Positions 37,188 through 57,073 of a stretch of DNA of 64,000 nucleotides are shown piece by piece. This DNA comes from Candidatus Aminicenantes bacterium (GTDB lineage Bacteria; Acidobacteriota; Aminicenantia; Aminicenantales; Saccharicenantaceae): contig CAVZBY010000011.1 in assembly GCA_963773685.1 (NCBI GenBank), positions 661,532 through 725,531 of the forward strand, given 5' to 3'. The translations under genes were made by a program, and so were the position numbers. The notes beneath the pieces were generated by a model. It had not been told where the DNA came from, did not search any database, and saw only the letters and a program-made list of their open reading frames with translations. Each line of letters opens with the position of its first letter. Position 1 is the first letter of the stretch.

Positions 37188-37372
37188 CCTTGCCGAATTG
37201 AATTCATAGCAAATTCCGGCCCATTGCCTCTCTTATCTAATACCCCCCCCTCTGCCTGTAAATCACCCTTTGAGGTGAATCCCCGGGGGATATTGGCGAT
37301 GATTCCGGACGAACTCTGACATCTCGGGCCCGGATGCCCGACGCCTCTTTCAAGCCGCGTTAAAACGACCTT

Positions 37373-38276: not shown

Positions 38277-38323
38277 GAGACCTCCTTCCTTCAATTGGCT
38301 GGGCGACGGACAAATGCCCGTTT

Positions 38324-38659
38324 TCAGTGCGGGAGTTCGAGCCATACGACGGGCTCGGTTCCCGAATTCCAGCCGTCGTGTCCGGGAGGTATGACGCCGA
38401 CGTCTCCCGGGCCGTATTCTTCTTCTTTTCCATCATCCATCCTGACGCGCAAATGGCCCGAAAGCACATAAATGACGTGATGCTTCGGACAGCTCTTAGC
38501 CCCGACAAGCGGTTTTATGTGTTTCGACCATTGCCATCCGGGCTCGGCCGTGACCCGCTGAATAGTGAAGCCGTCGATCGTGACGATTTCGATCCTGAGC
38601 TTTTCCGGGGTCTGAGTTTCATCCGGCCGGTTCAGACTTTTTTTTGCGATGGATGCCAT
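38324..38659 (-). CDS. Cupin-domain protein
   Basis: 111 aa: ...KHHVIYVLSGHLRVRMDDGKEEEYGPGDVGVIPPGHDGWN, the two-motif cupin pattern. Confidence 0.7.
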   Translation of the reverse strand: MASIAKKSLNRPDETQTPEKLRIEIVTIDGFTIQRVTAEPGWQWSKHIKPLVGAKSCPKHHVIYVLSGHLRVRMDDGKEEEYGPGDVGVIPPGHDGWNSGTEPVVWLELPH

Positions 38660-38859
38660 ACCCTTTCCCTCCTTACTTTGCGCCGAGTCCCCTATACATA
38701 TCTTACATCAACAAGAGAGCATATCAAACGGCAACAGAAATGTTGTTATCCTGTTTGGAATCCTAGATTTAGGGAAAGTCGCTCCGAGGCATCCCGCAGA
38801 AGCGATAAGCTCCGGCACCGACCTGCTGGAAAGCAAAAATGAGAAAGTGAGGTCGCGCG

Positions 38860-40257: not shown

Positions 40258-40467
40258 AAGGGAGGCGTCATTCGAGCGCTGACGGCCCTATTATATCTCC
40301 GGTGCGCGGCTGTGTCCATCGTCACAAGGAAAGGCCGGGGCAACCCCCGCCACAAGCCTCGCCGCACGGCTCCGAACCTTCCCCCCCGCCGGAGAATCCG
40401 CCTGCTGTTGACATAATCTTTTATTTCGTAGTTAGTAGAATCTGTCGTCATAAGAAGGAGGGGACAA

Positions 40468-40704
40468 ATGGATTTGAAGAAACTCGCGATTGGAATAATC
40501 ATTCTGGGGATTTTGGTTGCTGGCTACGGGATCATCGTATCCCTATCGGACGGAAGGGGCTTTAGGGGCGCGCATGATACGATGATGGCTGAAAACGAAG
40601 GATTAGGGGCTGGACATGCCAATCTCCCCTTTATCCTGGTCGGGGCAGGGATCATCGTTTTGGGCGTCGTCGTCAGCTACGCGAACAAGAGAACTAAATC
40701 CTGA
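40468..40704 (+). CDS. Small two-TM membrane protein
   Basis: SD AAGGAGG before the ATG. MDLKKLAIGIIILGILVAGYGIIV...LPFILVGAGIIVLGVVVSYA. Confidence 0.55.
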   Translation: MDLKKLAIGIIILGILVAGYGIIVSLSDGRGFRGAHDTMMAENEGLGAGHANLPFILVGAGIIVLGVVVSYANKRTKS

Positions 40705-40708
40705 TTAC

Positions 40709-40752
40709 GAGAGTAGCCCTGGGGGGACTCGAACCCCCGACCTGCGGATTAG
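40709..40752. repeat. Island left boundary: 44-bp perfect direct repeat (attL-like), a displaced 3' portion of tRNA-Arg
   Basis: gagagtagccctggggggactcgaacccccgacctgcggattag is identical to 54373-54416. Similarity extends to 40759/54423 with 2 mismatches. No D-arm or 5' acceptor follows, so this is a tRNA fragment. Confidence 0.9.
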
Positions 40753-40817
40753 AAATCTGAACAGGCTCAACGCTAATGGCTTAAGAATGAATGTGTTATG
40801 GGGATGGCGGTCGCAAT

Positions 40818-40836
40818 GATGGCCGAATTATTGCCA
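40818..40836. repeat. 19-nt direct repeat, left copy (gatggccgaattattgcca)
   Basis: Identical to 54249-54267. Both copies lie just inside the island ends. Confidence 0.8.
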
Positions 40837-41156
40837 ATCCAGGAAGCGCTACTCCTCGGCGGAAGCTCCTAAAGGGCTTTGACTGGGCTTGCCACACCGG
40901 ATCCTCCCACAGGCTTTTTCGTAGACGTGCCGCGTTTGTGCGTAGGGGTAGTTGAGTTTGACAGTGCGTACAGTTTAGAGTGACGCTTGGGGACGGAAAA
41001 GGGATATCTACGCTAGACCTGCAAGGTGGTTACCTGCCCAAATAGCATCGATTTCCATAGAGATCGGGCTGCTGAGGGGAGTAATCGACTTCTCTATGAA
41101 CCACCATACCGCCTTGCAACGCAGCTGGATTTTACGATCGGGACTGTATCACTCAA

Positions 41157-42482
41157 TTACACAACAGTCAGAAACGGGGCTTTCTCCCCTTCGTTGTCCT
41201 GCGTGGAAACTTGATAATTATCCCAGCCCTCTGACTTGTCTTTGCTCGAGGTCGTCCCAATTCTGTAGTACAGCTTGTCAGATGCCGTGGACAACTTTTC
41301 CCAGACCGGACCGGGCAATTTGTATGACGGGCCGGTGAAGCGCTCACTGTCATTGTATGATCCGTAGAAGTTCTCTTCGGTTCGTTGGGAACCATTAGCC
41401 ACGTAATCGAACAACTCCGGTCCATTACAGATCTCGAAGATATAGTATTTGTTCGCGCCCGTCACGACCGAAAAAGACGGCGGGTCATCTGCACCTGGCC
41501 ATGTGGTCGGCCCCTTAACGGATGGCCCCGTAGGCGTCGTGGAACTCGTCGCAATTTCGAATGGTCTTTGGCTCTCAAACCCGGGATCGGCGACGCCGAC
41601 GACGAAATAGTTTGGCGTTTGAGTCGGTGGCATTCTACGACAAATCTCCGTATGCAACTTGCGATAGTCTCCCGAGAAGTTCCCGTGGTCCCAAACCTCC
41701 AGTAGCTTCTCAGTGAATAAGCCATTGTTAATCCCGTCTGAGGACAACTGATTATCCTGGCAACCGGAGATCAACACGAGCGAAGCTTGAAGAGGCGTGG
41801 CGCGTCCGCGTGGAACCATCCACTGTGCAGCATCGTACAGGTCCTTATGCCTCAAGTACGCGGCCATGGACTCGGCCGGCGTCAGTGCTCGGAATCGAGG
41901 GGGCTGTTCCTTGATCGCTCTAGCTTTCCTCATAGGATCAGTCCCTCCGAAGAACAAGGTGTAGTTATCATGCAAAGAAACAAAGAATTCTTTCGGTCGC
42001 GGCGTCCCAGTCGTAGTCGGAGCAAATGTCGGAGTTCTTCCCGGCAGTAGCAATATGGACTTGAGAACCGTACCGCTGTGACAACTATCCGAGAGTGCTA
42101 ATATGCGCACACCAGCGCCAAACTGCGACCACAGTTGAGATAACTCATCGTCTATCAGCATTCGATCATACAGGCACCAAGTTTCGTCATAGCCATCATC
42201 CTCATCCCCGTTCGCGTCCGGCACCTGTCCTCCGTGCCCGGAGTAGGTGAGAAAGAGCATATCACCTGCCCCGAGTACTTTTGCAGCTTTGCCGATTTCC
42301 TGGACCACACGGCTATAAGTTGCATCATAAGTCAGTATTATGGTCGATGTGTACCCCAAAGAATCAGCCAACTCTTTCATTGATATGGCGTCGTTTTCAC
42401 ACCCGGCCAAAAGACCATCGACGCCATAGGAGGCTTTATCAATGAGGTTCAGACCTATGTGGATGGATATTCCTTTTATCAT
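41157..42482 (-). CDS. Caspase-like (peptidase C14) protease with an unknown ~250-aa C-terminal region
   Basis: SD AAGGAG before the ATG. IHIGLN...GCENDAISM...MLFLTYSGHGGQVPD...VRILALSDSCHSGTV gives the His (SGHG) and Cys (DSCHSG) dyad in canonical order and spacing. Confidence 0.8.
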   Translation of the reverse strand: MIKGISIHIGLNLIDKASYGVDGLLAGCENDAISMKELADSLGYTSTIILTYDATYSRVVQEIGKAAKVLGAGDMLFLTYSGHGGQVPDANGDEDDGYDETWCLYDRMLIDDELSQLWSQFGAGVRILALSDSCHSGTVLKSILLLPGRTPTFAPTTTGTPRPKEFFVSLHDNYTLFFGGTDPMRKARAIKEQPPRFRALTPAESMAAYLRHKDLYDAAQWMVPRGRATPLQASLVLISGCQDNQLSSDGINNGLFTEKLLEVWDHGNFSGDYRKLHTEICRRMPPTQTPNYFVVGVADPGFESQRPFEIATSSTTPTGPSVKGPTTWPGADDPPSFSVVTGANKYYIFEICNGPELFDYVANGSQRTEENFYGSYNDSERFTGPSYKLPGPVWEKLSTASDKLYYRIGTTSSKDKSEGWDNYQVSTQDNEGEKAPFLTVV

Positions 42483-42564
42483 AGTGTATCTCCTTCTTTC
42501 AGAATGTCTGTGTTCGTCACCAAGTAACTTGGTGGCAACTGCTCTTTGCCGCGTAATTGCGGGC

Positions 42565-43746
42565 TCACTGTATGGTCTCCCATTCGAGACTAACTACGTT
42601 GCCGTTCTTCTTAAGGTCCAAAGACCTCCACGATCCGAACTGTTGTAGCCCCGCGCAATCGATTCTGGTAACCTGATATACGAGGGTGCGGTTTGCCTGG
42701 TATGTTGTGAGAGGTAGCACCAGATCGACCGCCGTCACTGGTGCAAGGTCGTTCACTTCGGCACGATGTACGTCGGGCAGATCATTCAGCCGCGCCGCGA
42801 TCTGGAGCGATTTAAGTCCGCGGTTCCCTAGATTAATTAGATTGACGAAAACAACATTCGTCGCGATATCTTCGATTGCATTTCTCAGTTCAGGGAGAGT
42901 CGTGCCACCACCACTGACGAGAGCGTATACTGGGATGACAGTCGTGGTCCCGTCCGGCACACCCACGTCAATTGATCCGCCAGCCATCACGGTGGCTTCC
43001 ACAGGTGCCCTGACAGCGGTGCCCCCAGCAATCGCATATATCTCTCGTATATTGACGGCCCCGATGAGGTTGTCCGTAAGGGAACTCCCAGGGGTCACGT
43101 TCGCACTCTGGCCCGTACCTGAGGGGCCAGGGATTCTGTTGATGAGCCGGGCGGATGCTCCTTGAACCATGACTTCAATCGGACCGGCTTCCCACGGGCC
43201 AACCACTGTCTGAAGGTCGAGAATTATCGAACCTCGAAGCGTCGTCTGATCGGGCAAGCGTGTCACGATATCACACGCAATTCCCGTGAACTCGATCATC
43301 TTCTGAAGCAAGGGCACGTCTTCCAGCTTTGAAATCAAACTCACCTGAAAGCCGTCCCAGAGCTTCGTCACCTCGACTGTAATCTCAGATTGTGCCATCC
43401 CGGCAATTGCCCAATCATACGAGGCGTCACCGGGGATCTCAGTCAGAAAGTCGATCACTGGGTCCATCGCATACGATGTAAGCTTAGTCCTTAGTTCGTA
43501 CCGGACAAAGAGAGGCATGTCTGGCTGGACCGTCGCGAGAAGAACCGCCTTATTGTTGGTCGGTGTTTCAGGATCGACCGTAGAGTACAGGCAAATCGCC
43601 GCACGGTACGATCGGTCCCCATCGTTCGGACCAAAACGGGCTATGCGGTAGGTCCGAGGTACGACCAAAAAACGCCCAGGTTGTTGTAAGGACCGGTATA
43701 CCGTGTAAAGGTCGCTCTGCAGGAACGTCATCCTTAATCTCTTCAT
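42565..43746 (-). CDS. Hypothetical protein (~393 aa), operon gene 3
   Basis: The ATG (MKRLRMTFLQ...) lies in an ATGA context at 43743-43746. Its N-terminus carries the motif FLVVPRTYRIARFGPNDGD, shared with the 573-aa protein. It overlaps the tail of ORF 43568..46090. Confidence 0.65.
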   Translation of the reverse strand: MKRLRMTFLQSDLYTVYRSLQQPGRFLVVPRTYRIARFGPNDGDRSYRAAICLYSTVDPETPTNNKAVLLATVQPDMPLFVRYELRTKLTSYAMDPVIDFLTEIPGDASYDWAIAGMAQSEITVEVTKLWDGFQVSLISKLEDVPLLQKMIEFTGIACDIVTRLPDQTTLRGSIILDLQTVVGPWEAGPIEVMVQGASARLINRIPGPSGTGQSANVTPGSSLTDNLIGAVNIREIYAIAGGTAVRAPVEATVMAGGSIDVGVPDGTTTVIPVYALVSGGGTTLPELRNAIEDIATNVVFVNLINLGNRGLKSLQIAARLNDLPDVHRAEVNDLAPVTAVDLVLPLTTYQANRTLVYQVTRIDCAGLQQFGSWRSLDLKKNGNVVSLEWETIQ

Positions 43747-46090
43747 ACTGGCGGAAAGTCGTTTGGCCCAGGCGAAAAGCATCCTGACAGCCGACCGCAA
43801 CAGCACCCTGGTCGGTCTCCTGTCTATAGAGAGCACCAAGGGTGTTACATGGGTAGAGGATCTCTGTCGACTGTTGGCGCCCCATTATCTGAACTGCATA
43901 TGAGGTCAGACGCAGTCGATCGGCAACGACTGCCGTGAGGTTCAATTGTGGACTCACCGCAATGACAGGGTGTATGGAAACATATTGGCCGGTTGCCAGC
44001 GCAACTGTCGACGCTGGCCCCTGGGCAGCAGAAGCTTCCGAAGGGCGCTCGCTCGTTCCCGAAGCCGGAACTTCCCGGTTGTAGTGAAGGGTAACAGCAG
44101 GATGACAGTAAGAGACCGACTCGGCGTCAACAAAGGTGCGGCCATCAAGGTCGTGAGCCTGGGCAGCCGAGAAGGCTACCGGCGTAACAGCCTCCTTGCC
44201 CCCATGTGCCACAAGTAGGCTGAGCCTGGGGACAGCAACGTAGGCTTTGAAAGAATAGCTCGTTACAAGCCTGGCTGGCTCCGTCTGGTACCCAGGATAG
44301 GCCAACGCTCCATAGCAGGCACGGGCCCAATCATCGATGAGGTACAGGGTGACTACTGCCGTCTCACCCAGTCGCTCAAGAGTCGTCGGGAAAGACTGGA
44401 TTCGCGTGGCGCCGGCCGCGTCTCTGAAGGGCAAAACGAATTGAACTGACAGGCCATCAACAGCAACAGGCGACGCTTTCACCGATCCTAGCCGTTTCAG
44501 GGCTTCGGCTGTCGGAGTCGACATTGCGGGACGGAGAGTGAATCGGATTGTCGTCTCGATACCGGGTTGGCCGGACGCCGTGTGTCCCTTCTGGCGGAAG
44601 GAATATAGAAAGGGGCTATTCTCGGAATCACTGTTCGGCGACGGGAGTACCGGCTCAAAACTCGGCGCATACCAATATTTGCCGTTCGTAATTCGATCCT
44701 TCCAGATTGGCGAAGACGGTTCGTCCACTACCGGAAGACTCTGATCGACCCCGTGGGCCCCAGGCAGAGAACTCGGGCGATCGATGACGACTTCGTTTGA
44801 AGTAAAGTGGTGCAGGTTCGGCGCCACCTGAATAGTCTGCGCTACATGTCCACCCGAAACAAGCGCCGAGGCCGGAACGACAGCATTGCGCCCAGGCGTC
44901 ATTTTGGACCTCAGTGTCCGGTAGCCGTTTCCGTCTGCCGCCAGCTCAATGGATCGTGGACGAACGGTCGACTTTATACCAATCGAAGGCAAAGAACGCA
45001 GCCTGCGTGGTGCAGGCTCGAAGCCCGCAGTTTGCGAGTCCACGCACACCAAGCGAATATGTGAATCCGTCGGTCGGCCGCGCAACGAATCGCCGAAGAT
45101 CCGATCAAGCGAAGTCTCCATTTCGAGAGTGCGTTCGCCCACGCGCGCGATGTCCTGCTCAAAAGCAAGGGCAAATGCACTGCCCGGACGCCGCTTCAGC
45201 CTGTAGCAATTCTGAGGGGAGGCCGGTTCCAGTTCGGGAGTGAGACACTCAATAATAACCGAGGCGGCCCTTCGAAAAGGCGTCACTAACTGGTCTATGT
45301 CAATCGCCCTTTCTGCCTCCTGGCTGCCATCAGGATTCAAAACATGGTACTGAACCACCTTCGCGTCAATGAGATCGCGGAGCATTGTGCCAACGTCTGT
45401 GAGTGTCAGAGGAGCATCCGCATCGAGATGATCCGAAACCCAATCAGAGATCCAATCGAAAATCTCCTGCCAGATGCCGGAGACCTGGACTCTCTGAGTG
45501 ACTGCCGCCGTCCGGAACTGAACGTGACAGCGGACCTTGAGACGCGAAGGAACTCCGGAAAGAGCGGCGACGACCTCCACGGTGTTTTCCCGATCCAGCT
45601 GTGCCTGCAGAGAGGCGCGAGGTGCGATTCCTTCAGAGAGAATGGGGCCGGAGAGAATATCTCCTTCGAATCCCACAAGTGTAAAGGTCGCCGGTCGGAC
45701 GTAAATCGGACGATAGCTCTCAAGGGAGTCTGCGTCGGCGCCGGTAAGAGCACTCGACTCAGGGATAACCCATCCAACTGAGAGCGTTAGAACACCCTGC
45801 TGGATGAGATGGTGAATGGAGCTCTCTTCGGGCAACGGTCGGCGGCTAAGCATGATGGTGAGTGACAGGATAGGTGTTCCCACGCTATCGCAGCACAGCG
45901 CCGGAACACCGGGGAGAACGTGGAACAACCCGGGACGGGACGCGACCGCAAGGCTCTGGTTCATCTCGTCCGGCAGCACTAGTACCGTGAGCATCTGAAT
46001 GCTTCCGGTCTTCAGTTCCCGCACCTCCCATGGGGCACTGCCGGACGGGCCACAGCGGTCACGCTCTGCCAAAACGATACGCCTCTCCAC
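43568..46090 (-). CDS. Hypothetical large protein (up to 840 aa), operon gene 2; true stop probably near 43743
   Basis: Long uninterrupted ORF. The 46090 start is GTG without an obvious SD, and an alternative ATG exists at 45994 (MLTVLVLPDE...). The last ~55 codons overlap gene 3 out of frame and look non-coding. Confidence 0.65.
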   Translation of the reverse strand: MERRIVLAERDRCGPSGSAPWEVRELKTGSIQMLTVLVLPDEMNQSLAVASRPGLFHVLPGVPALCCDSVGTPILSLTIMLSRRPLPEESSIHHLIQQGVLTLSVGWVIPESSALTGADADSLESYRPIYVRPATFTLVGFEGDILSGPILSEGIAPRASLQAQLDRENTVEVVAALSGVPSRLKVRCHVQFRTAAVTQRVQVSGIWQEIFDWISDWVSDHLDADAPLTLTDVGTMLRDLIDAKVVQYHVLNPDGSQEAERAIDIDQLVTPFRRAASVIIECLTPELEPASPQNCYRLKRRPGSAFALAFEQDIARVGERTLEMETSLDRIFGDSLRGRPTDSHIRLVCVDSQTAGFEPAPRRLRSLPSIGIKSTVRPRSIELAADGNGYRTLRSKMTPGRNAVVPASALVSGGHVAQTIQVAPNLHHFTSNEVVIDRPSSLPGAHGVDQSLPVVDEPSSPIWKDRITNGKYWYAPSFEPVLPSPNSDSENSPFLYSFRQKGHTASGQPGIETTIRFTLRPAMSTPTAEALKRLGSVKASPVAVDGLSVQFVLPFRDAAGATRIQSFPTTLERLGETAVVTLYLIDDWARACYGALAYPGYQTEPARLVTSYSFKAYVAVPRLSLLVAHGGKEAVTPVAFSAAQAHDLDGRTFVDAESVSYCHPAVTLHYNREVPASGTSERPSEASAAQGPASTVALATGQYVSIHPVIAVSPQLNLTAVVADRLRLTSYAVQIMGRQQSTEILYPCNTLGALYRQETDQGAVAVGCQDAFRLGQTTFRQYEEIKDDVPAERPLHGIPVLTTTWAFFGRTSDLPHSPFWSERWGPIVPCGDLPVLYGRS

Positions 46091-46177
46091 TCAACGCGAC
46101 GCGAGAGCCAAACCCTTGGAAACCAAATCTCACCTTTATCACCAAATCACGTCGTCAGATATAACGACGCGCGCCTA

Positions 46178-46903
46178 TTATGTTTTCCCGCGCTTGCCGG
46201 TTTCAGCCCGCTTGGCCGGCGGAACGACGGATACCGCGGGCCCCGTACTTTTGCTCTTCCCTTCCGCAGAGGCAGTCCGAGTTGGCGGAGTCACTTCAAA
46301 CCCACTGATCTCAATAGCCCGAGCGGCAGCCTCCTCCTGCGGCAGTGCTCGCGAACTGGGCGGAACCTCATTGCCACCGGAGGTCACGGGCGGTGGCGTC
46401 GCCGAAGCATCTGTCGATATCCGCGTGGGGAGCAAGAAGTCCTTCAGTTCTAGAGAACGGTTCTTAACCTCTTTGTCACTCGGTCGCGGAACTTGCACTA
46501 CAAGCGGTCCATTTCCATTCGATTCGACCCATTCTCCGGTCCATTCCTGTCCACCCGTAAACAGGCCGCCTTTTACCACAACCCTCACCTGGTATTTAAA
46601 CTTGGGTATGAAATCGAGCTGACCCGTAAAGATCGTCCAAAAACGCGGCTCATCCTGATCGGCAAAACTCCAGACAAACTTGGTAATCGGTCGATCTGCG
46701 CCGTCCCCGGTCTTTCCAAGGCACTGGAACGACACCTCAACCATCTGCTTTGCGTCTTCAAGGACAACGCCGAGCGTCACGGGACCGACAGACAGTTTGC
46801 CGGCAGAGTCGGCACGAACCTCTATCGCATTTTCATTGGTGAGAACGTCCGTTTGGGTCGGGATCAAGATCGAGTATATTCTTTTCCACGAAGCAGCGGG
46901 CAT
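46178..46903 (-). CDS. Hypothetical; probably the C-terminal continuation of the 573-aa ORF across a frame break near 46840-46850
   Basis: Coding-looking from ...IPTQTDVLTNENAIEVRADSAGKLSVGPVTLGVVLED... to a Pro/Ser/Thr-rich, Lys/Arg-terminated tail. No SD precedes the only internal ATG (46903). Confidence 0.5.
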   Translation of the reverse strand: MPAASWKRIYSILIPTQTDVLTNENAIEVRADSAGKLSVGPVTLGVVLEDAKQMVEVSFQCLGKTGDGADRPITKFVWSFADQDEPRFWTIFTGQLDFIPKFKYQVRVVVKGGLFTGGQEWTGEWVESNGNGPLVVQVPRPSDKEVKNRSLELKDFLLPTRISTDASATPPPVTSGGNEVPPSSRALPQEEAAARAIEISGFEVTPPTRTASAEGKSKSTGPAVSVVPPAKRAETGKRGKT

Positions 46904-48554
46904 GCGGATAGGCAAGTTCGTCAGGAGGTTCTGCGAAATGAATTTGCCTTTTAATGAATGTCTGATCGGGGGTCCAGCCGGCAGGTGGGTTTTCCACATG
47001 TGCCTGGTCCTTCTTTTCCTCTGACCAGGTCCAGGCAGCATCGGCCGGATCGGTTGCCTGGAACACATGGGCTTTCCACTGGATATCCCCCTTGGTGCTC
47101 GGATACCCGACCTGAGCCGACAAAAACGCCACTGGCTCGCCAATCCATTTGCGACTTGGATCAGGCCAGTTGACCACCGGCTTGACAATCCGACTGTTCT
47201 TACGGTCCCAATCACTCAGATACAGAGTGCTGAAATACTTGTTTTCAGCTTGAGGATCGGCCTTGATATCATTGTAGAAGCCTTCAAGAGTGCCGCTCAC
47301 AACTGTGTCCTGCAAATATGCCATTTCGCGCGTTTCATCGTATTCGAGGTTAAGATGGGTCTCGTCTCTGCGATACTTCAGGGCCATACCTACTCCCCAC
47401 GGACCAGACCCGCTGCTAGCCTTCGCAGGCTCGACATTGGGAGCCGGCGGTTCGAAGATCATCTTCTGCGCTGCCTCCATGAATTTCTGATAAACAAGGT
47501 CCGTCTTCTTGTCGATGTCCTGCTGCATTTTTTCGGCGCCCGGAATAGTAGGATCGATTTCCACAACGACCTTCATTATGCCCTTAGTGCGCATATTGTT
47601 GATCTCGACTTTAATGTCGGCAGAGGCCCATAGATAGTGACCAGACATCGCCGACGAGAAGTGGCTGAAAATCTTGTCCCACTCCCCGGTGATCTTAATG
47701 TGGACAAGAGGAGCCCAGAACTTGATTTTCATGTCCTGTCGAACCACCATCGCGCTGTAGGTGCCGTGAAAGCTTGCCCATAGAAGCGCAGCCGGCAAAC
47801 TGCCGACTAACCCGGAGAAAGCGTTTTCAGCAAGCAGGTCAATCGAACCTGCCCCCTGACCCTGGAGATTTACGTACCACGGGTCCAAATTCGTGCCGGC
47901 GGTATCCCGCGTGAGCGGAACAGAACGCGGGAATTTCATGGCGGGTGAGGCCAATGGTGTCAGATTGAATGACCGCATCACCGCAATGTCGGCGCCCCGA
48001 GGCGGGGCAGGTGGTGCCGCAGACCCCGGTGTCACGCCCGACCCGGCAAGGGCCGTGGAGGTGCCCATAGGAGAGTTGATTGTCGGCACGGAGCCGTTGG
48101 GAAGCGGCGACAAGTTGGTCAGCAACGTCACGTTTGATACGACCGGCATCGGTCTGAACATAGGGCGCGCACTAGTGCGCCATCCCCAGTACTTGTCGTT
48201 ATCTCCCCGAAAGATCTCGGCCAGCTGATCCTCAGCCGTTTTGAGAACGTCCGGTGGCGGCGCAGCCGTCGTCGAGAAGCTAATGACCCCCCCGGCTACC
48301 TCGCGCTCTCCGGCCACTCCAACTGTGCTGTTCTCACTCTGAACGCCGACAAAGTGGATCATTCGAAACTTGAAGTCGCCATTGCCCCCGTGGCGAGCCA
48401 ACCGAACGTAGTTAGGCATCCAATAGTATACCGGTGGTTTGCCTTGCCGCTGTAAATCGTCATTGTGAAGATCGGGGAGATATAGCATCTCATATCCAGC
48501 CATAGCAATATGCTGGAATCCCCCTGCGAAGATCGGTCCTACTGGGTCAGCCAT
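46833..48554 (-). CDS. Hypothetical large protein (573 aa as read; ~790 aa if joined to 46178..46903), operon gene 1
   Basis: SD AGGAGG 7 nt before the ATG at 48554. MADPVGPIFAGGFQH...PPVYYWMPNYVRLARHGGNGDFKFRMIHF.... No family recognised. Confidence 0.7.
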   Translation of the reverse strand: MADPVGPIFAGGFQHIAMAGYEMLYLPDLHNDDLQRQGKPPVYYWMPNYVRLARHGGNGDFKFRMIHFVGVQSENSTVGVAGEREVAGGVISFSTTAAPPPDVLKTAEDQLAEIFRGDNDKYWGWRTSARPMFRPMPVVSNVTLLTNLSPLPNGSVPTINSPMGTSTALAGSGVTPGSAAPPAPPRGADIAVMRSFNLTPLASPAMKFPRSVPLTRDTAGTNLDPWYVNLQGQGAGSIDLLAENAFSGLVGSLPAALLWASFHGTYSAMVVRQDMKIKFWAPLVHIKITGEWDKIFSHFSSAMSGHYLWASADIKVEINNMRTKGIMKVVVEIDPTIPGAEKMQQDIDKKTDLVYQKFMEAAQKMIFEPPAPNVEPAKASSGSGPWGVGMALKYRRDETHLNLEYDETREMAYLQDTVVSGTLEGFYNDIKADPQAENKYFSTLYLSDWDRKNSRIVKPVVNWPDPSRKWIGEPVAFLSAQVGYPSTKGDIQWKAHVFQATDPADAAWTWSEEKKDQAHVENPPAGWTPDQTFIKRQIHFAEPPDELAYPHARCFVEKNILDLDPDPNGRSHQ

Positions 48555-48793
48555 AAGTTACCTCCTATTAATAGGAAATTCGATATACATAATGCCAAGA
48601 TCCCTATTAAGTCAGGGCCGGAACAATGCGCGCGTTTCATTTATCCTGCCCTTATAATTTTTAGCTATGAGGAAAGTGAAAAAAACAATATTTTTGCCAT
48701 AAAAGACTCAACTAACCCTCCCCCGACCAACTAAATATGGAAACTCGCCTACACAAAGTCAACATCCGAGCCGGCGTCTCCGCGTATTTCAAA

Positions 48794-48813
48794 TAATCTC
48801 CAATAATTTCAAT
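48794..48813 (+). promoter_or_regulatory. 20-nt shared upstream motif, copy 1 (taatctccaataatttcaat)
   Basis: 19/20 identical to 49766-49785. Ends 18 nt before the ATG at 48832. Confidence 0.5.
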
Positions 48814-48831
48814 GTTTTTCAAACTAATTCG

Positions 48832-49554
48832 ATGAAATATGTAAGGGAATTATCAGGGATCAGATTAACGTCGGGTATCACCGGCTATAGAATTCTGGAA
48901 GAAATGATACTTGATAAGTTCGACCCGGCGAAGCCATTCTACTCACTCGTCCTAGCCTACCTGTGCCAAGTCCACGGATTGGCGGAACTGATCTCTCGTG
49001 GGTTCTATCGGGAGTTCGAGACGTTCATACAAAAAGTGCGGCCCGCAGCTCACATATCCCGAAAGCAACTAATCGCGCTCTTCCTGGCTAATATGAGTGA
49101 GGTGATCCGGGATGACGCTGAACAAACTCTCTTGGGCGGGACAACCATTTTGTTGCTTCCACTGGAGATGCAGGCATGGAGTGGAGAGGGCCTCAAGTGG
49201 GACGCGGCTGAGTTGGCCGACACGGTATTCTCGGACAAGTACAACGCGACCCTTCGGTACTTCAACCGCCTTACCGCCGGGAGCCTACTCGTAATGGCGT
49301 GGGAGCACGTGAAGCCGAAGCATCGACGCGACCCGGTCGCCCAGTTCCTTAGGCACTGCCGGAATGCGGCTGCCCATAACGGAGTATTCACTTTTAACCA
49401 CGGGCAACCAGATAAACCGGCTGAGTGGCACGGTATCAAGATTGTTCGGGCCTTGGAAGGCTCACCCCTGTTCGTCGATCCGCCGCGAAAGGGGTTTCTC
49501 GGCCCTGGTGACGCAGTTTACTTGCTGGCCGACATCGAAAAGAAGTTAATGTAA
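48832..49554 (+). CDS. HEPN-motif protein (Abi_2/AbiD-like guess), putative RNase
   Basis: Mostly helical 240 aa with ...VAQFLRHCRNAAAHNGVF..., where R-N-A-A-A-H matches the HEPN Rx4-6H motif. Confidence 0.55.
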   Translation: MKYVRELSGIRLTSGITGYRILEEMILDKFDPAKPFYSLVLAYLCQVHGLAELISRGFYREFETFIQKVRPAAHISRKQLIALFLANMSEVIRDDAEQTLLGGTTILLLPLEMQAWSGEGLKWDAAELADTVFSDKYNATLRYFNRLTAGSLLVMAWEHVKPKHRRDPVAQFLRHCRNAAAHNGVFTFNHGQPDKPAEWHGIKIVRALEGSPLFVDPPRKGFLGPGDAVYLLADIEKKLM

Positions 49555-49765
49555 TTGATCAAACTGGACGCCGATAAGGGCGGAAGATCCCACCTCGTTA
49601 TTAAAGGACGCTCAGGGAAGCATCAGATTCTCACTGAGAGGAGAGGGGCACCACCGCTCCTTATCACATGCCCCCCGCTATTGCGGATAAGCCGATTATA
49701 TTAGAAAGATGGATACTCGCCCTCTTAATGTCAGCGGCTCGAAGGGGATAGCCCTGATTTTCTAG

Positions 49766-49785
49766 TAATCTCCAATTAATTCAAT
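49766..49785 (+). promoter_or_regulatory. 20-nt shared upstream motif, copy 2 (taatctccaattaattcaat)
   Basis: 19/20 identical to 48794-48813. Ends 59 nt before the ATG at 49845. Confidence 0.5.
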
Positions 49786-49829
49786 TTATCTAGCATTCCT
49801 TCGACTAATACTACGGATGTATATAGATA

Positions 49830-49842
49830 GGGGGGGGGGGGG
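49830..49842. repeat. Homopolymeric G13 tract occupying the SD position of the 49845 gene
   Basis: 13 consecutive G, then AA, then the ATG at 49845. Confidence 0.9.
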
Positions 49843-49844
49843 AA

Positions 49845-50036
49845 ATGCAGACAGTCGAAAGGCTCGATTCCTGGAAAGAGATAGCGAGGTATCTTCGAAG
49901 GGACGTGGGGACGTGTATCAAATGGACGAAATATTATGACCTCCCTGTTTATCATATTAATAAGAATTCTCCGCGCTCCAGAGTATTCGCGTTTAGAACA
50001 GAAATCGATCAATGGTTTAAGGGCAAAACAAAATAA
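49845..50036 (+). CDS. Small excisionase/MerR-like helix-turn-helix protein
   Basis: 63 aa: LDSWKEIARYLRRDVGTCIKWTKYYDLPVYHINKNSPRSRVFAFRTEIDQWF matches the pattern of Xis-family HTH_17-type DNA-binding domains. Confidence 0.55.
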   Translation: MQTVERLDSWKEIARYLRRDVGTCIKWTKYYDLPVYHINKNSPRSRVFAFRTEIDQWFKGKTK

Positions 50037-50235
50037 GAGGAAGTAAAGACAAGGTTTCTGCTTTTAGGCATCTCATTAATCGTCTGCACTCGAATATAAC
50101 GGCTATTAACCTGCCCCCCATAAATCGGCCCAGGTTTAATGGACTAACTCAGAGGAAGTGACCTGCCCCCCGAATCTTGGTCCATTCCGGATGCGACTTT
50201 TTTGATAAAATCGGGCATTCGGAAAGGAGTTCGGG

Positions 50236-50499
50236 ATGAAGAAGAAGTTCACGGAGGCGCAGATCGTCTTTGCTCTTCGCCAAGCGGAGAGCGGGACGCC
50301 GATCGCGGAGATCGTCCGGAAGATGGAGATCTCCGAGGTCACGTTCTATCGCTGGAAGAAGAAGTACGCGGGGATGGGTGTGGCGGAACTCCGCCGGTTG
50401 AAGCAGCTCGAAGATGAGAACCGGCGGCTGAAGCGGCTGGTGGCCGATCTGACGCTCGACAAGTAGATGCTCCAGGATGCCTTATCAAAAAAGTTCTGA
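50236..50499 (+). pseudogene. IS3-family transposase OrfA (HTH), with in-frame TAG at 50464-50466 upstream of the slippery site
   Basis: MKKKFTEAQIVFALRQAESGTPIAEIVRKMEISEVTFYRWKKKYAGMGVAELRRLKQLEDENRRLKRLVADLTLDK*MLQDALSKKF*. Confidence 0.8.
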
Positions 50500-51387
50500 G
50501 GCCCGCCGAGGAGCGGGACCTGGTGTTCGTCATGAGGACGTCCTACCAGGTCTCTGAGCGGCGGGCGTGTCGAGCTTTGAGACTCCCCCGATCGACGATC
50601 CGGCACAAGAGCATGGCAGACCCTCAGACGGCGCTTCGCATGCGACTGAGGGATCTCGCCATGTCACGGGTTGGCTATGGCTATCGACGGCTCCAGGTCC
50701 TGATCGAGCGGGAAGGATGGCACGTGAATCACAAGCGGGTTTATCGCTTGTATCGTGAGGAAGGCTTGGCCATGAGGCGGAGACCTTCCAGGCGGCGCAA
50801 GGCCTGCCTGAAGAGGGAGCTGCGGCCTCTGGCCGCGGAAAAGAACGAATGTTGGAGCATGGACTTCATGTCGGACGAGCTCTTCGACGGCCAGAGGATT
50901 CGGCTTTTAGCGCTAGTCGACAATCATACCCGTGAAAGTCTGGCGATCCATGTGGGCCAGAGGATCCGGGGCTGCTGAGGTGGTCCAGGTCTTGGAGCGG
51001 GTCATGAAGGGTCACGGCCGGCCGCTGACGATACGGGTGGACAACGGCCCGGAATTTATCTCTAAAGACGTCGATCTCTGGGCTTACTGGAACCACGTCA
51101 GCTTGGACTTCTCCCGTCCGGGGAAGCCGATGGACAACGCTTATATCGAGTCCTTCAACGGCCGGTTCCGGCAGGAATGCCTCAACGAGCACTGGTTCCT
51201 AAGCTTGGATGATGCCCGGGACAAGGTCGAAGCTTGGCGGCGGGACTACAACGAAGAACGCCCCCACAGCGCTCTCGGCAACGCGACCCCGGAGGAATAC
51301 GCGGCTCATGTCGAGTCTCGAAAAGGGCTTCCGGACCAAGAGCTCGCAGCGGCAGAAAAAGAACTTGCTTATTCAATAAGTTGCTGA
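50487..51387 (+). pseudogene. IS3-family transposase OrfB (rve/DDE), frame break near 50960
   Basis: The -1 frame from AAAAAAG reads KKVLRPAEERDLVFVMRTSYQVSERRACRAL...NECWSMDFMSD...LLALVDNHTRESLAIHVGQRIRG, then after a shift AEVVQVLERV...IRVDNGPEFISK...NAYIESFNGRFRQECLN...YNEERPHSALG. Confidence 0.8.
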
Positions 51388-51416
51388 CAAAATGGGCGAG
51401 AATCGGGGTGCGGGTC

Positions 51417-51773
51417 ATGAGCGTTTGGCCGGTTGGTGCTTATGGATTACTGTTTGGGGGGCCTATCGGGGCCATTTGGTTTTCATTTTTTAAGGATGTA
51501 GATTATTCGTTCTTCATCAACTATCGAAAATGGGTGTTCCCAGCATTACTAGTTCATATTTGCCTGCGCTTAGCTCAGAAACCTGACCCAGACTGGCGCA
51601 AGACCTGGCTCTTGGTGATACTCGCGGTGTTAAATAACCCGATTCGTTTGGTCCATTTTGGTATCGTTTGGCCTTGGTTGATAATCAATGCCGCCACACT
51701 AATATTTTCATTCTGGGCAGTAACGAAAGTGAGAGACTGCCGCCTTAGAGAGAATAAGCAAAGGTGGTCTTAA
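51417..51773 (+). CDS. Small polytopic membrane protein (118 aa)
   Basis: MSVWPVGAYGLLFGGPIGAIWFSFF...WVFPALLVHICL...WLLVILAVLNN...WPWLIINAATLIFSFWAV. The A of the ATG is the last base of the IS, so the N-terminus may be IS-truncated. Confidence 0.5.
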   Translation: MSVWPVGAYGLLFGGPIGAIWFSFFKDVDYSFFINYRKWVFPALLVHICLRLAQKPDPDWRKTWLLVILAVLNNPIRLVHFGIVWPWLIINAATLIFSFWAVTKVRDCRLRENKQRWS

Positions 51774-51859
51774 CATCTCTTAGCGAGCCGCCTTCGGGCG
51801 TCTTGCGGCTTTGGGGATGCATAGAAGTCCTATTTATGGGATAGTCCCAGGAGGATAAG

Positions 51860-53011
51860 ATGTCTGAAGTTGTGTTTATTCTAGGTGCTGGCGCCTCTGC
51901 TCATACCGGAGCCCCGGTTATGAGCGCTTTTTTTAACACAGTTTGTGATCTCTATGAGGATGGAAAGATTAGTGTTGAAGACAAAGAGGCCTTTTCGCTG
52001 ATAAGGGATGCCAAGAGGGATCTAGAGAGAATTTTAGTCAAGGTCGACTTGGACTTGCATAATCTGGAAACCCTTTTTTCCCTTATAGAAATGGGGAGGC
52101 TTATAGGCGTCTTCCCTGGAAGTATACCGATAGAAATATTGCATAAGGCCATACAAAGAGTGATAGTCCGAACGATAGAACTGAAAACCAACTGCTATTT
52201 TGTGCCATGTGATGACGACGCATATTGCTTACTCCTTAGAGAACTTAAGTCGCTCTGGGGCCAACGAAACATATGGCGTAGTTCAATAATCACATTTAAT
52301 TATGATGTTGCGATTGACCTTGCGGTGGAACGTAACGTAGGAGCCATTGACTATTGCCTTCATGAGAAACCGGACAATTCGCCCTGCGGCTACAAATTAT
52401 TGAAGCTTCATGGTTCGTTCAATTGGGCCAAATATAAAGAGAACAATCAGAGCGGAGTTATTCCAGTCTCCGTTAATAGGTTTGTTAATGAGTATTTTCA
52501 ACAACGGGAAGAACGGAAAATGATAACCACCGCAGATTTGCCCATTAAGGTAGCAGATAGATTAAATAATACCTTTCAGATTGATGTGGGGTCCAAGATC
52601 AATAGACTAAGAGCGAACTTCTACTCGGGATATGAAGTGGACTTGCTTGATGATTCTCCATTAATAGTCCCTCCTACGTGGAGTAAAACGGAATACCACA
52701 CAATTTTGAAAAGCGTCTGGGCGCAAGCAGCAAAAGAAATATCTGAGGCAAAGTACATTATCATTATCGGGTATTCTCTTCCCCCAAGTGATCTCTTTTT
52801 TCAATATCTTTTAGCTTTAGGGATGCTTGATATCCACCGCATAAAAGCTTTCTGGGTTATTGATCCAGCCGAGGCTACCATAAAGAGGTACAGGGAATTT
52901 ATCGGAGATCCCATAAAAGCGGCATTCCGCGAGTCCCCACAAGCCTTTAATCACTTTGCAGTCAAGCAAATCCATCAGTTCTTTGAATCGAATGGTCTAA
53001 TCGAATCGTGA
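51860..53011 (+). CDS. SIR2-like (SIR2_2-type) protein, putative NAD+-consuming defence effector
   Basis: SD AGGAGG. VVFILGAGASAHTGAP (Rossmann), SSIITFNYDVAIDLAVE (conserved Asn), YKLLKLHGSFNW (conserved His) and YIIIIGYSLPPSDLFFQYLL. Confidence 0.75.
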   Translation: MSEVVFILGAGASAHTGAPVMSAFFNTVCDLYEDGKISVEDKEAFSLIRDAKRDLERILVKVDLDLHNLETLFSLIEMGRLIGVFPGSIPIEILHKAIQRVIVRTIELKTNCYFVPCDDDAYCLLLRELKSLWGQRNIWRSSIITFNYDVAIDLAVERNVGAIDYCLHEKPDNSPCGYKLLKLHGSFNWAKYKENNQSGVIPVSVNRFVNEYFQQREERKMITTADLPIKVADRLNNTFQIDVGSKINRLRANFYSGYEVDLLDDSPLIVPPTWSKTEYHTILKSVWAQAAKEISEAKYIIIIGYSLPPSDLFFQYLLALGMLDIHRIKAFWVIDPAEATIKRYREFIGDPIKAAFRESPQAFNHFAVKQIHQFFESNGLIES

Positions 53012-53177
53012 GTTTTCAGAATAACGATACTGAGTACTGGAGTGATTTGGTCACGTCGCCTTGAAGGAAGGAATCCGGAAGTACGATTAGGTCTGAAAAA
53101 GGTAGGAGCATTGTATTCGCCCATTAATAGATACAGAAAACGCGTTGGCTCCAAAGTAATTTCCAGGAGAGAATGGA

Positions 53178-53645
53178 ATGAAGGGAGATGGAGTTAGTCG
53201 GCAACTTGTCGGTGAAGCGGGCGTTCATTATGTACTCTCGGAGTTGGCACAACGAGGGTTGATCGCTGTCGCCACCAGTCGGAACGTTAAGGGCCCTGAC
53301 GTGATCGTCACGAATCCGGACGGAACGCGGTTTGCCGCAATCCAGGTAAAGACGCGACGTAATACTGGAGATAAGTTTTGGAATGTCGGGGATAGGGGCT
53401 TGACTTGGGGAGGCCCGAATTGTTGGTATGTCTTTGTTCGTATTAACAATGGAAGGTTCGAGGCCTTTATGGAGAAAGCCAGGAAGGTGAAGGAGTTTGC
53501 TAAGGCAGACTTTGACGAGCTAAACCGACGAGGCAAGAAATCATTTGGGGCATCGTGGGGATTCGGGGCCTATTTCGTTAGGCTCTTCAATGATTCGAGA
53601 ATTGAAGAACGGGCCCGGAAGCAATGGAGAGTATTTAATCTTTGA
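53178..53645 (+). CDS. Small PD-(D/E)xK-like putative nuclease (155 aa)
   Basis: VGEAGVHYVLSELAQRGLIAVATSRNVKGPDVIVTNPDGTRFAAIQVKTR gives an E...D...QxK arrangement, as in Hjc/restriction-endonuclease-fold proteins. Confidence 0.5.
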   Translation: MKGDGVSRQLVGEAGVHYVLSELAQRGLIAVATSRNVKGPDVIVTNPDGTRFAAIQVKTRRNTGDKFWNVGDRGLTWGGPNCWYVFVRINNGRFEAFMEKARKVKEFAKADFDELNRRGKKSFGASWGFGAYFVRLFNDSRIEERARKQWRVFNL

Positions 53646-54248
53646 CAAGGAGCGCAGTGTTCCATACTCTTCGAATTGCACCAGAGTGTGAAGGCGGTCG
53701 ATCCCAAGGCGATTTGAAGGTCCAACAGAGGTTCGTTGAAATCATGCTGTATATGGTCCTGCTCAAGGACGAACCAGTTTTCCTTTTGCACTGGCCATTC
53801 GATACATTGCCCACGCTCAAGGAAATGTTTAGAAATTAGTTCCTGGGGTGAATGAGGGGATTTGAATCTCCAACATTCGAATCCCGACTTCAATTCCGTA
53901 CTCATCAGACATCTATACCATCTTTACAGCTGAAAGTGCTAATACGTAGGGGTCTAGTGGGGGGAGCGAGATATTAGTTTAGAATCCTCTTTAGAAGGGG
54001 TGGGGCGGGTTAAACGGGGTATCCACGGGCGATCAATGAGGCTATCCGACCTCCTGAGCTCTCAGACCTCGGGCATACGGTCTTGGTATCAGGGAATCTT
54101 AATCAACCTACAGCGCAGTCGAGCCACCAAGGGGGAGATGGGTAGGGGCCAAGCTAGCATATACTGCGTTAGTGTTAAAAATGCCTCCGCTTTTTTAGGC
54201 AGGAGAGTGCTCGCACGTCTCCCTAGTCCCATAACTCTATGAGAATCC

Positions 54249-54267
54249 GATGGCCGAATTATTGCCA
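54249..54267. repeat. 19-nt direct repeat, right copy (gatggccgaattattgcca)
   Basis: Identical to 40818-40836. Confidence 0.8.
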
Positions 54268-54372
54268 TTTTATAGTGGAAAATAGCGGAATCCGATGGAC
54301 TTTGACGGAATGGGACGATAGGCCACGCTTCACGCTAAGTGATTGATACTGATTATGTATAAGGGGGAATTA

Positions 54373-54416
54373 GAGAGTAGCCCTGGGGGGACTCGAACCC
54401 CCGACCTGCGGATTAG
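54373..54416. repeat. Island right boundary: 44-bp perfect direct repeat (attR-like) overlapping the 3' part of tRNA-Arg
   Basis: Identical to 40709-40752. Covers 5 nt beyond the tRNA 3' end, the acceptor 3' strand, the T-arm, the variable loop and the 3' anticodon stem, up to the anticodon. Confidence 0.9.
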
Positions 54417-54452
54417 GAATCCGTCGCTCTATCCATACTGAGCTACAGGGCT
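54378..54452 (-). tRNA. tRNA-Arg (anticodon CCT)
   Basis: Hand-folded 75 nt: AGCCCTG TA GCTC AGTATGGATA GAGC G ACGGA TTCCTAA TCCGC AGGTC GGGGG TTCGAGT CCCCC CAGGGCT A. The 7-bp acceptor, D and T stems are all paired. There is one A.C pair in the anticodon stem. No encoded CCA. Confidence 0.9.
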
Positions 54453-54550
54453 GGCTCGGTTAGATGGGTCAAATATAGCCGAATCCCTCGGGGTTTTCAA
54501 TAGAATCGCGCGCCGGGCCCGAATGGGACCGCAGGGTTCGGCCGGGTCAA

Positions 54551-57060: not shown

Positions 57061-57073
57061 GAGCGCCTCCTCC

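What the first reader, a model, noticed from the sequence alone, without database searches (positions are those of the whole stretch)
40709..54452. ~13.7 kb genomic island at tRNA-Arg(CCT), bounded by a perfect 44-bp direct repeat, with no recognisable integrase
The 44-bp sequence at 40709-40752 recurs at 54373-54416 (51 bp with 2 mismatches). The right copy is the 3' part of an intact tRNA-Arg. The left copy is a tRNA fragment with no D-arm or 5' acceptor. This is the signature of site-specific integration into a tRNA 3' end. The first difference outside the core is the anticodon wobble position: CCT in the intact gene and TCT-like in the fragment-side arm. GC content drops visibly inside the island. 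My spot counts of single lines give ~58% in the operon and 35-48% around the SIR2 gene, against ~63% in core genes. No ORF in the track resembles a tyrosine or serine recombinase. The island therefore looks immobilised or dependent on a recombinase encoded elsewhere. Cargo is dominated by putative conflict genes.
Basis: partly seen in the sequence, partly recalled or inferred. Interest (0 to 1): 0.65.

Follow-up and report, generated by a model that had tools for sequence, protein, structure and literature searches.

The report
Integrase-less genomic island at tRNA-Arg
A 13.7-kb block of foreign, low-GC DNA sits next to a tRNA-Arg gene between two copies of the tRNA's 3' end and has no integrase of its own; this is an ordinary decayed or helper-dependent genomic island at a site where related bacteria carry other inserts.

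Summary
An intact tRNA-Arg(CCT) lies at 54377-54452 (-). Its 3' 45 nt plus 4 trailer bases (54373-54421) recur at 40709-40757: 49 nt with 1 mismatch, 44 nt perfect, and the mismatch is the anticodon wobble base. GC is 52.6% inside against 64-65% outside.

Related metagenomic contigs keep the right flank (MscS/cNMP gene, then tRNA-Arg). In four of them the tRNA is followed after about 155 nt by the homolog of window gene 35868-37187, which is an empty site. Others carry unrelated DNA there, including a truncated tyrosine integrase abutting the tRNA. The site is therefore an integration hot spot.

No tyrosine or serine recombinase, and no remnant of one, was found in the island. A perfect 19-nt repeat lies just inside each end and may be an arm-type binding site.

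Three refinements apply:
- Foreign DNA extends left to about 37300 (17.1 kb in all), so the repeat-bounded unit is only part of it.
- The island contains an IS3-family element.
- The 'operon' is a conserved three-gene cassette (two large unknown proteins plus a protease).

Apparent frameshifts are probably assembly errors. Best reading: a CIME-like, integrase-less integrative element. Known kind, low interest.

The parts
54377..54452 (-). Intact tRNA-Arg(CCT), the integration target
   Evidence: ARAGORN; Rfam RF00005 at 67.7 bits
54373..54421 (.). tRNA-proximal att core: tRNA positions about 30-76 plus 4 trailer bases
   Evidence: Direct repeat D2; exact 32-mer present twice, 0 expected
40709..40757 (.). 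Distal att core: a tRNA 3' fragment with no D-arm or 5' acceptor; wobble base T instead of C
   Evidence: Rfam 27 bits, below threshold
40818..40836 (+). 19-nt repeat GATGGCCGAATTATTGCCA, 61 nt inside the left end; candidate arm-type recombinase binding site (inferred)
   Evidence: Perfect copy of 54249-54267; the longest shared word in 500 shuffles of the two ends was 13 nt or less
54243..54298 (+). Second copy of the 19-nt repeat (54249-54267), plus an 11-nt direct sub-repeat GAATCCGATGG at 54243 and 54288; 75-130 nt inside the right end
41157..42482 (-). Caspase-like (Peptidase_C14) protease, third gene of the cassette
   Evidence: Pfam PF00656 E 3.8e-23; PDB 3BIJ (GSU0716) E 4e-79
42571..46054 (-). 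Cassette gene B (about 1175 aa, unknown function), read in two frames with the switch near 43722-43730
   Evidence: tblastn with the Caldilinea 1182-aa neighbour; no Pfam, PADLOC, NCBIfam or PDB match
46214..48554 (-). Cassette gene A (about 780 aa, unknown function), read in two frames with the switch near 46860-46867
   Evidence: 460 homologs, listed ones mostly 730-895 aa (typically 770-830), none with a Pfam domain; tblastn; AlphaFold model with no convincing PDB match
48832..49554 (+). 240-aa protein of unknown function; the motif RNAAAH looks HEPN-like by eye only
   Evidence: No hit in Pfam, PADLOC, NCBIfam, PHROGs or PDB
49845..50036 (+). 63-aa helix-turn-helix protein, weakly excisionase-like; preceded by a 13-nt G run (49830-49842)
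   Evidence: PHROG 66 E 0.0011; NCBIfam MADS1 HTH E 0.003; homologs are not next to integrases
50159..51417 (+). IS3-family insertion sequence: 22-nt inverted repeats (17 of 22 match), orfA and a split orfB, no target-site duplication
   Evidence: HTH_Tnp_1 E 5e-19; HTH_21, rve and rve_3; ends read
51417..51773 (+). 118-aa putative membrane protein; its start codon overlaps the last base of the IS
51860..53011 (+). SIR2-like protein, 42% GC
   Evidence: PADLOC SIR2 E 3.7e-11; Pfam SIR2_2 at 21.8 bits, below the 24.5 cut-off; NCBIfam SIR2_antiphage at 27.5 bits against a cut-off of 500
53178..53645 (+). 155-aa protein of unknown function; looks PD-(D/E)xK-like by eye only
   Evidence: Only PHROG 29029, E 0.0028; no PDB match
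53570..53905 (-). 111-aa ORF of unknown function, the ORF nearest the tRNA
   Evidence: No hit
37300..40708 (.). Second extra block, absent from the empty-site relatives, 58.8% GC. It holds a secreted-protein gene split over two frames (37373-38345), a cupin gene (38324-38659), a 465-aa gene (38860-40257) and a 78-aa membrane ORF (40468-40704)
   Evidence: the 465-aa homologs are scattered without synteny
37256..37294 (-). Conserved motif upstream of gene 35868-37187. In empty-site relatives it lies 27-65 nt after the tRNA, so it marks the ancestral junction
   Evidence: blastn 90% over 39 nt, E 6e-9; alignment A1

Best explanation
The segment 40709-54421 is what remains of an integrative element that entered the 3' end of tRNA-Arg(CCT) by site-specific recombination, most likely through a tyrosine recombinase. 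The crossover lay 3' of the anticodon wobble base. The element's own copy of the tRNA 3' end rebuilt the gene, and a 49-nt tRNA fragment was left at the far junction. The element now has both att cores and probable arm sites but no integration or transfer genes. On sequence grounds this makes it a cis-mobilizable element (CIME). It lies in a tRNA-linked hot spot that also holds a second, older 3.4-kb foreign block. Its cargo is a mosaic: an A-B-protease cassette, an IS3 element and a SIR2-like module. What is shown: the repeats, the composition, the empty and differently occupied sites in relatives, and the absence of a recombinase. What is inferred: the recombinase class, the crossover position, the role of the 19-nt repeats, and how the integrase was lost.
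For: Repeat and tRNA. GC 52.6% against 64-65%. The right flank (MscS/cNMP gene followed by tRNA-Arg(CCT)) is conserved in 26 metagenomic loci. Empty site: in L025, L026, L027 and L041 the tRNA is followed after about 155 nt by the homolog of window gene 35868-37187. L025 and L027 then continue collinear with the window's left core (L025 as far as about 25.4 kb). L069 is 82-95% identical in protein on both flanks and has a different 8.9-kb insert between the same two genes. MGE traces at the same tRNA: a Phage_integrase fragment (E 2e-27) ending 6 nt from the tRNA in L021; the same integrase 3'-end sequence as the tRNA trailer in L022, L032, L046, L049, L050, L051 and L069; IS200-like and IS91-like transposases; and a terminase-like gene. 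No recombinase in the island. 19-nt repeats at both ends. The four empty-site tRNAs encode CCA, whereas the window's tRNA and the other occupied ones do not, as expected if an element supplied the 3' end. CIME definition: PMC5704250.
Against: No same-species empty site was found. The empty sites come from relatives with about 65% protein identity, and the closest contigs (about 84% nucleotide identity) carry other DNA after the tRNA or end too soon. No relative of this particular element with an integrase was found: the core is absent from viral contigs, and neither the 19-mer nor a second copy of the core is in any of the 69 fetched loci. The first 15-45 nt after the tRNA on the island side weakly resemble the trailer of L039 (z 4.8). 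That could mean part of this trailer is native rather than element-derived. The left block shows no third att remnant. An unrecognised recombinase among the unannotated ORFs cannot be excluded.
Confidence: 0.75

Rival explanations
1. The element is not dead. It is a hitcher that keeps intact att cores and arm sites, and it is excised and integrated by an integrase encoded elsewhere in the genome or on an incoming element of the same specificity.
For: The att cores are nearly perfect (44 of 44, 48 of 49) and the two 19-nt end repeats are perfect. This is unexpected for a long-dead element, given the decay seen in neighbours. Integrases that target this tRNA exist in the lineage. Mobilisation of CIMEs in cis has been described (PMC5704250).
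Against: No helper integrase is present in the 64-kb window (tblastn best E 0.12). No second copy or relative of this element was found. No oriT, relaxase or excisionase was identified; the HTH match is weak, and its homologs are not linked to integrases.
Confidence: 0.17
2. The integrase was removed by an IS3-mediated adjacent deletion inside an otherwise typical island. This is one specific route to the best explanation.
For: The IS3-family element at 50159-51417 has recognisable inverted repeats but no 3-4-bp target-site duplication (flanks ..GGAAG and TGAGC..). That is what an IS-mediated deletion or inter-IS recombination leaves. The IS sits beside the excisionase-like HTH gene.
Against: Integrase genes normally lie next to an att site, not mid-island. 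The assembly has indel errors that could hide a short duplication. Homologs of the HTH gene are not next to integrases.
Confidence: 0.1
3. The structure is an artefact or is unrelated to integration: a chance repeat, a segmental duplication, or a chimeric metagenome assembly joined at tRNA-like repeats.
For: The contig comes from a metagenome assembly with many frameshifts in core genes.
Against: The repeat is far beyond chance. It stops within a few bases on both sides, so it is not part of a longer duplication. It coincides exactly with a tRNA 3' end. Both flanks are syntenic with relatives across the insert. A 49-nt repeat is too short to mislead a long-contig assembly.
Confidence: 0.03

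Closest known systems
CIME (cis-mobilizable element), as defined for decayed ICEs/IMEs of streptococci (Guedon et al. 2017, PMC5704250)
   Same: Flanked by attL and attR, which include the 3' end of the target tRNA gene. No integrase or transfer genes. Sits in a site where further elements accrete.
   Different: Descent from an ICE or IME is not shown. No helper element is known. The host is an uncultured lineage: homologs of the core flank gene that carry a source name are Acidobacteriota/Aminicenantes MAGs.
Classical tRNA-linked genomic or defence islands with P4-like tyrosine integrases
   Same: Direct repeat equal to the tRNA 3' end, low GC, mosaic cargo that includes a SIR2-like gene, and an IS element inside.
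   Different: The hallmark integrase next to the tRNA is missing, and no fragment of it is detectable.
The integrase-bearing insert at the same tRNA in related contigs (L021 type)
   Same: Same target gene and same orientation, downstream of the tRNA 3' end.
   Different: Different tRNA trailer sequence and no shared genes. The L021-type integrase fragment has no match in the window.

Membership tests
tRNA-integrated genomic island (site-specific recombinase type) | Direct repeats, one of which is the 3' end of an intact tRNA gene | tested here: met
tRNA-integrated genomic island (site-specific recombinase type) | Composition differs from the flanking core genome | tested here: met
   52.6% GC against 64-65%; no outside window of the same size falls below 63.5%
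tRNA-integrated genomic island (site-specific recombinase type) | Absent from the orthologous locus in relatives (empty site) | tested here: met
   L025, L026, L027 and L041 are empty, and L069 has a different insert. These are relatives at about 65-85% identity; no same-species genome was found.
tRNA-integrated genomic island (site-specific recombinase type) | Integrase gene inside the element, usually next to an att site | tested here: not met
   No Phage_integrase, Resolvase or Recombinase hit in the ORFs or in six-frame translations of the ends. tblastn with the L021 integrase fragment found nothing.
tRNA-integrated genomic island (site-specific recombinase type) | Excision to a circular form, restoring attB | not testable with these tools
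   Needs reads or an experiment
CIME (cis-mobilizable element) | attL and attR retained | tested here: met
   48 of 49 nt identical in the cores, plus perfect 19-nt repeats inside both ends
CIME (cis-mobilizable element) | Integration and transfer genes lost | tested here: met
   No integrase, relaxase or type IV secretion domains among the island ORFs
CIME (cis-mobilizable element) | Derived from an ICE or IME and mobilisable by an incoming element of the same specificity | not testable with these tools
   No related intact element was found
IS3-family insertion sequence (element at 50159-51417) | Terminal inverted repeats starting TG, orfA with HTH_Tnp_1, orfB with a DDE rve domain | tested here: met
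IS3-family insertion sequence (element at 50159-51417) | 3-4-bp target-site duplication and intact reading frames | tested here: not met
   The flanks differ. orfA ends before the A AAA AAG motif and orfB is split. Assembly indel errors may explain the frame breaks.
SIR2-type anti-phage system | SIR2 protein scoring above a curated family threshold, with a known partner gene | tested here: inconclusive
   PADLOC SIR2 E 3.7e-11, but Pfam is below its cut-off and NCBIfam scores 27.5 bits against 500. The neighbouring 155-aa gene is unassigned.

The most novel reading that the evidence does not exclude
The island could be an active, integrase-less hitcher moved in trans by an integrase of the same tRNA-Arg specificity. 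Its main cargo could be an undescribed conflict or toxin system: a cassette of two large unannotated proteins (A about 780 aa, B about 950-1180 aa) followed by a swappable protease. The protease is caspase-like in three of the four genomes examined (labelled Caldilinea, Amycolatopsis and Chitinophagaceae) and subtilisin-like in the fourth (Gammaproteobacteria).
Probability: 0.15. Interest if true: 0.55.

Novelty: new member of a known kind. Interest (0 to 1): 0.25.

Why it matters
As an island it adds little. tRNA-linked islands that have lost their integrase but keep their att sites are well described. It is a clean example from an uncultured lineage, with an empty site, a differently filled site and an integrase remnant all recovered from metagenomes. 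It also marks tRNA-Arg(CCT) as a hot spot in that lineage. The more useful lead is the cargo. The A-B-protease cassette has hundreds of well-conserved homologs across source records labelled from several phyla (50-67% identity) and no family, structure or name.

Tried and rejected
- **Left-flank synteny.** I used the 465-aa left-flank gene (38860-40257) to look for synteny. It found 20 loci, mostly labelled Verrucomicrobiota, but none has any other window gene or a tRNA nearby.
- **Exact look-ups.** Look-ups of window proteins found nothing on record.
- **att core in viral contigs.** A 32-nt core search returned 0 hits.
- **Integrase remnants.** Pfam on six-frame translations of 40700-41200, 49500-50600 and 53600-54400 found only the IS3 orfA. 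tblastn with the L021 integrase fragment gave a best E of 0.12, outside the island.
- **The 63-aa HTH as an excisionase.** Only weak profile matches were found. Its five homologs sit in varied contexts without integrases, so the idea is not supported.
- **A third, decayed tRNA fragment at the 37.3-kb junction.** None was found; local alignment scores there are at background.
- **Frameshifts as evidence of decay.** I rejected this. Conserved core genes in the same window are also broken across frames relative to their homologs: the hypF-like gene is in four frame pieces and the MscS gene in two. Assembly indel errors are therefore the likelier cause.
- **Structure of cassette protein A.** The AlphaFold model has mean pLDDT 73.9 and very long beta-hairpins. 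Foldseek against the PDB gave only generic beta-sandwich matches with TM-scores of 0.15 or less.
- **PDB sequence searches.** Searches for A, B, the SIR2-like protein and the 155-aa and 240-aa proteins found nothing useful.
Full report
**1. The observation**

ARAGORN finds a single tRNA in the window, tRNA-Arg(CCT) at 54377-54452 on the minus strand. Rfam scores it at 67.7 bits. The repeat finder reports 40709-40757 and 54373-54421 as a 49-nt direct repeat with one mismatch. A 32-nt piece of the repeat occurs exactly twice in the window and never in 100 shuffles.

The right copy covers roughly positions 30-76 of the tRNA plus 4 trailer bases. The left copy has no D-arm or 5' acceptor strand, and Rfam scores it at 27 bits, below the gathering score of 29. 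The single mismatch is anticodon position 34: C in the gene, T in the fragment.

GC is 52.6% for 40758-54372, against 64.2% for the left core and 65.1% for the right core. No 13.6-kb stretch outside falls below 63.5%.

**2. Is it an inserted element?**

I used the gene next to the tRNA on the right, a mechanosensitive-channel/cNMP-binding gene at 55467-57077, to scan the metagenome collection. This returned 33 loci. In 26 of them a tRNA-Arg(CCT) follows that gene, as in the window. The right flank is therefore conserved.

What follows the tRNA varies between loci.
- **Empty sites.** In L025, L026, L027 and L041 the tRNA is followed after about 155 nt by the homolog of window gene 35868-37187 (49-66% protein identity). 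L025 then continues collinear with the window's left core down to about 25.4 kb, and L027 is collinear as far as its contig runs.
- **The ancestral junction.** A 39-nt motif that lies 27-65 nt after the tRNA in those loci is found in the window at 37256-37294 (90% identity, E 6e-9).
- **A differently filled site.** L069 is a closer relative, at 82-95% protein identity on both flanks. It has the lipoprotein gene, the tRNA and the 436-aa gene separated by a different 8.9-kb insert.
- **Traces of other mobile elements.** The other loci carry unrelated DNA after the tRNA. L021 has a truncated tyrosine integrase (Pfam Phage_integrase, E 2e-27) whose stop codon lies 6 nt from the tRNA. The start of that integrase 3'-end sequence is the tRNA trailer in L022, L032, L046, L049, L050, L051 and L069. 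L024 has an IS200-like transposase, L050 an IS91-like one, and L053 a terminase-like gene.

**3. The boundaries need widening**

Relative to the empty sites, the window has about 17.1 kb of extra DNA, from about 37300 to 54376. The repeat-bounded unit is the right 13.7 kb of this. The left 3.4 kb has 58.8% GC. It holds a cupin gene, a secreted-protein gene split over two frames, a 78-aa membrane ORF and a 465-aa gene.

Homologs of the 465-aa gene, at 46-72% identity, are scattered through MAGs labelled from several phyla, with no shared neighbours. I could not find a third tRNA remnant at the 37.3-kb junction. This block is best read as an older, more decayed acquisition at the same hot spot, but that is an inference.

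**4. No recombinase**

Pfam, PADLOC, NCBIfam and PHROGs scans of the island ORFs found no tyrosine or serine recombinase, relaxase or secretion component. Six-frame translations of the non-coding ends and of 49500-50600 gave only the IS3 orfA. tblastn with the L021 integrase fragment gave nothing in the island.

The 63-aa HTH protein at 49845-50036 has weak excisionase-like matches (PHROG 66 E 0.0011; MADS1 HTH E 0.003). Its five homologs are not next to integrases, so I do not call it an excisionase.

**5. The att region**

A perfect 19-nt word, GATGGCCGAATTATTGCCA, lies 61 nt inside the left end (40818-40836) and 105 nt inside the right end (54249-54267). Both copies are in direct orientation and there are no others in the window. 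In 500 shuffles of the two ends, the longest shared word was 13 nt or less. Part of the word recurs at 54288-54298.

In a circularised element these copies would flank the core. That is the layout of arm-type integrase binding sites, but this role is inferred.

The four empty-site tRNA genes encode their CCA end. The window's tRNA and the other occupied ones do not. This fits replacement of the 3' end by element-borne copies.

One point remains unexplained. The first 15-45 nt after the tRNA on the island side weakly resemble the trailer in L039 (z 4.8). A TTTTCCCC(A)TATA motif is shared by L024, L036, L039 and L042. This could be a shared attP arm or native sequence.

**6. Cargo**

The 'operon' is a three-gene cassette. 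Gene A (46214-48554) has 460 homologs, typically 770-830 aa, none with a Pfam domain or an informative name. I examined four of them: contigs labelled Caldilinea, Amycolatopsis, Chitinophagaceae and a gammaproteobacterium. In each, gene A is followed by a 950-1180-aa unknown protein and then a protease. The protease is Peptidase_C14 in three and Peptidase_S8 in one.

In the window, A and B are each read in two frames. Conserved core genes in the window (the hypF-like gene and the MscS gene) are also broken across frames relative to their homologs. I therefore attribute these breaks to assembly indel errors rather than decay.

The caspase-like protein is solid (Pfam E 3.8e-23; PDB 3BIJ E 4e-79). 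An AlphaFold model of A has mean pLDDT 73.9 and shows very long beta-hairpins followed by beta-sandwich domains. It has no convincing PDB match.

The remaining cargo is as follows.
- A 240-aa protein with no family assignment.
- The 63-aa HTH protein.
- An IS3-family element at 50159-51417. Its inverted repeats match at 17 of 22 positions, and it has orfA, a split orfB and no target-site duplication.
- A small membrane protein.
- A SIR2-like protein: PADLOC E 3.7e-11, but below the Pfam and NCBIfam cut-offs.
- Two small ORFs with no family assignment.

The modules differ in GC: 55% for the cassette, 59% for the IS and 45% for the SIR2 region. The cargo is therefore a mosaic. 'Dominated by conflict genes' is plausible but only partly shown.

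**7. Verdict**

[quoted passage not shown] It sits in a tRNA-Arg(CCT) hot spot of an uncultured lineage. Homologs of the core flank gene that carry a source name come from MAGs labelled Acidobacteriota or Aminicenantes.

This window cannot show whether the element is dead or is still moved by an integrase encoded elsewhere. The near-perfect att cores and end repeats leave the second option open. It is a new member of a known kind and of low interest as an island. The unannotated A-B-protease cassette is the part most worth following up.

Noticed in passing
window 41157-48554; L054, L065, L066, L067: The island's operon is a conserved three-gene cassette: protein A (about 780 aa), protein B (about 950-1180 aa) and a protease. 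It occurs in four genomes labelled from four different phyla. The protease is caspase-like (C14) in three and subtilisin-like (S8) in one. A and B have no Pfam family and no PDB relative by sequence; an AlphaFold model of A has no convincing PDB fold match.
   Followed up: partly
window 28273-30498, 55473-57060, 37373-38345, 43722-43730, 46860-46867, 50932-50978: Many genes are split across reading frames relative to their homologs, including the conserved core genes for a hypF-like protein and the MscS channel. This points to indel errors in the assembly, so pseudogene calls here are unsafe.
   Followed up: partly
window 38860-40257: A 465-aa gene with no Pfam domain has 46-72% identical homologs in 20 MAGs labelled Verrucomicrobiota, Aminicenantes, Acidoferrum, Hydrogenedentes, Elusimicrobia and others. 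They share no neighbours, which suggests a gene that moves on its own.
   Followed up: partly
window 54549-54687: Three tandem 47-nt repeats lie between the tRNA and the lipoprotein gene. Each holds a GC-rich hairpin (GCAGGCTAAAGCCTGC). They occur nowhere else in the window.
   Followed up: partly
window 49830-49842: A run of 13 G lies 2 nt upstream of the start codon of the 63-aa HTH gene. It could be a slippage-prone tract or an assembly artefact.
   Followed up: no
window 33654-35867: A 737-aa CBM9/DUF5916 gene is present in the window and in L068 but absent from L025 and L069 at the same position. This is a second presence/absence difference in the left flank.
   Followed up: partly
L021 1923-2485; trailers of L022, L032, L046, L049, L050, L051, L069: The 3' end of a tyrosine integrase gene survives as the tRNA trailer in at least eight related contigs with different downstream content. 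Seven of them (all but L051) share about 60-100 nt. It is a fossil of one element family at this tRNA.
   Followed up: partly
L025, L026, L027, L041 versus the window and other loci: tRNA-Arg(CCT) genes at the four empty sites encode the 3' CCA (as do two more distant loci, L028 and L029), whereas the window's tRNA and the other occupied loci do not.
   Followed up: no
L036 5687-5979: In one close relative (about 84% nucleotide identity), the tRNA-Arg is followed 141 nt later by a tRNA-Thr(CGT) that the window lacks.
   Followed up: no
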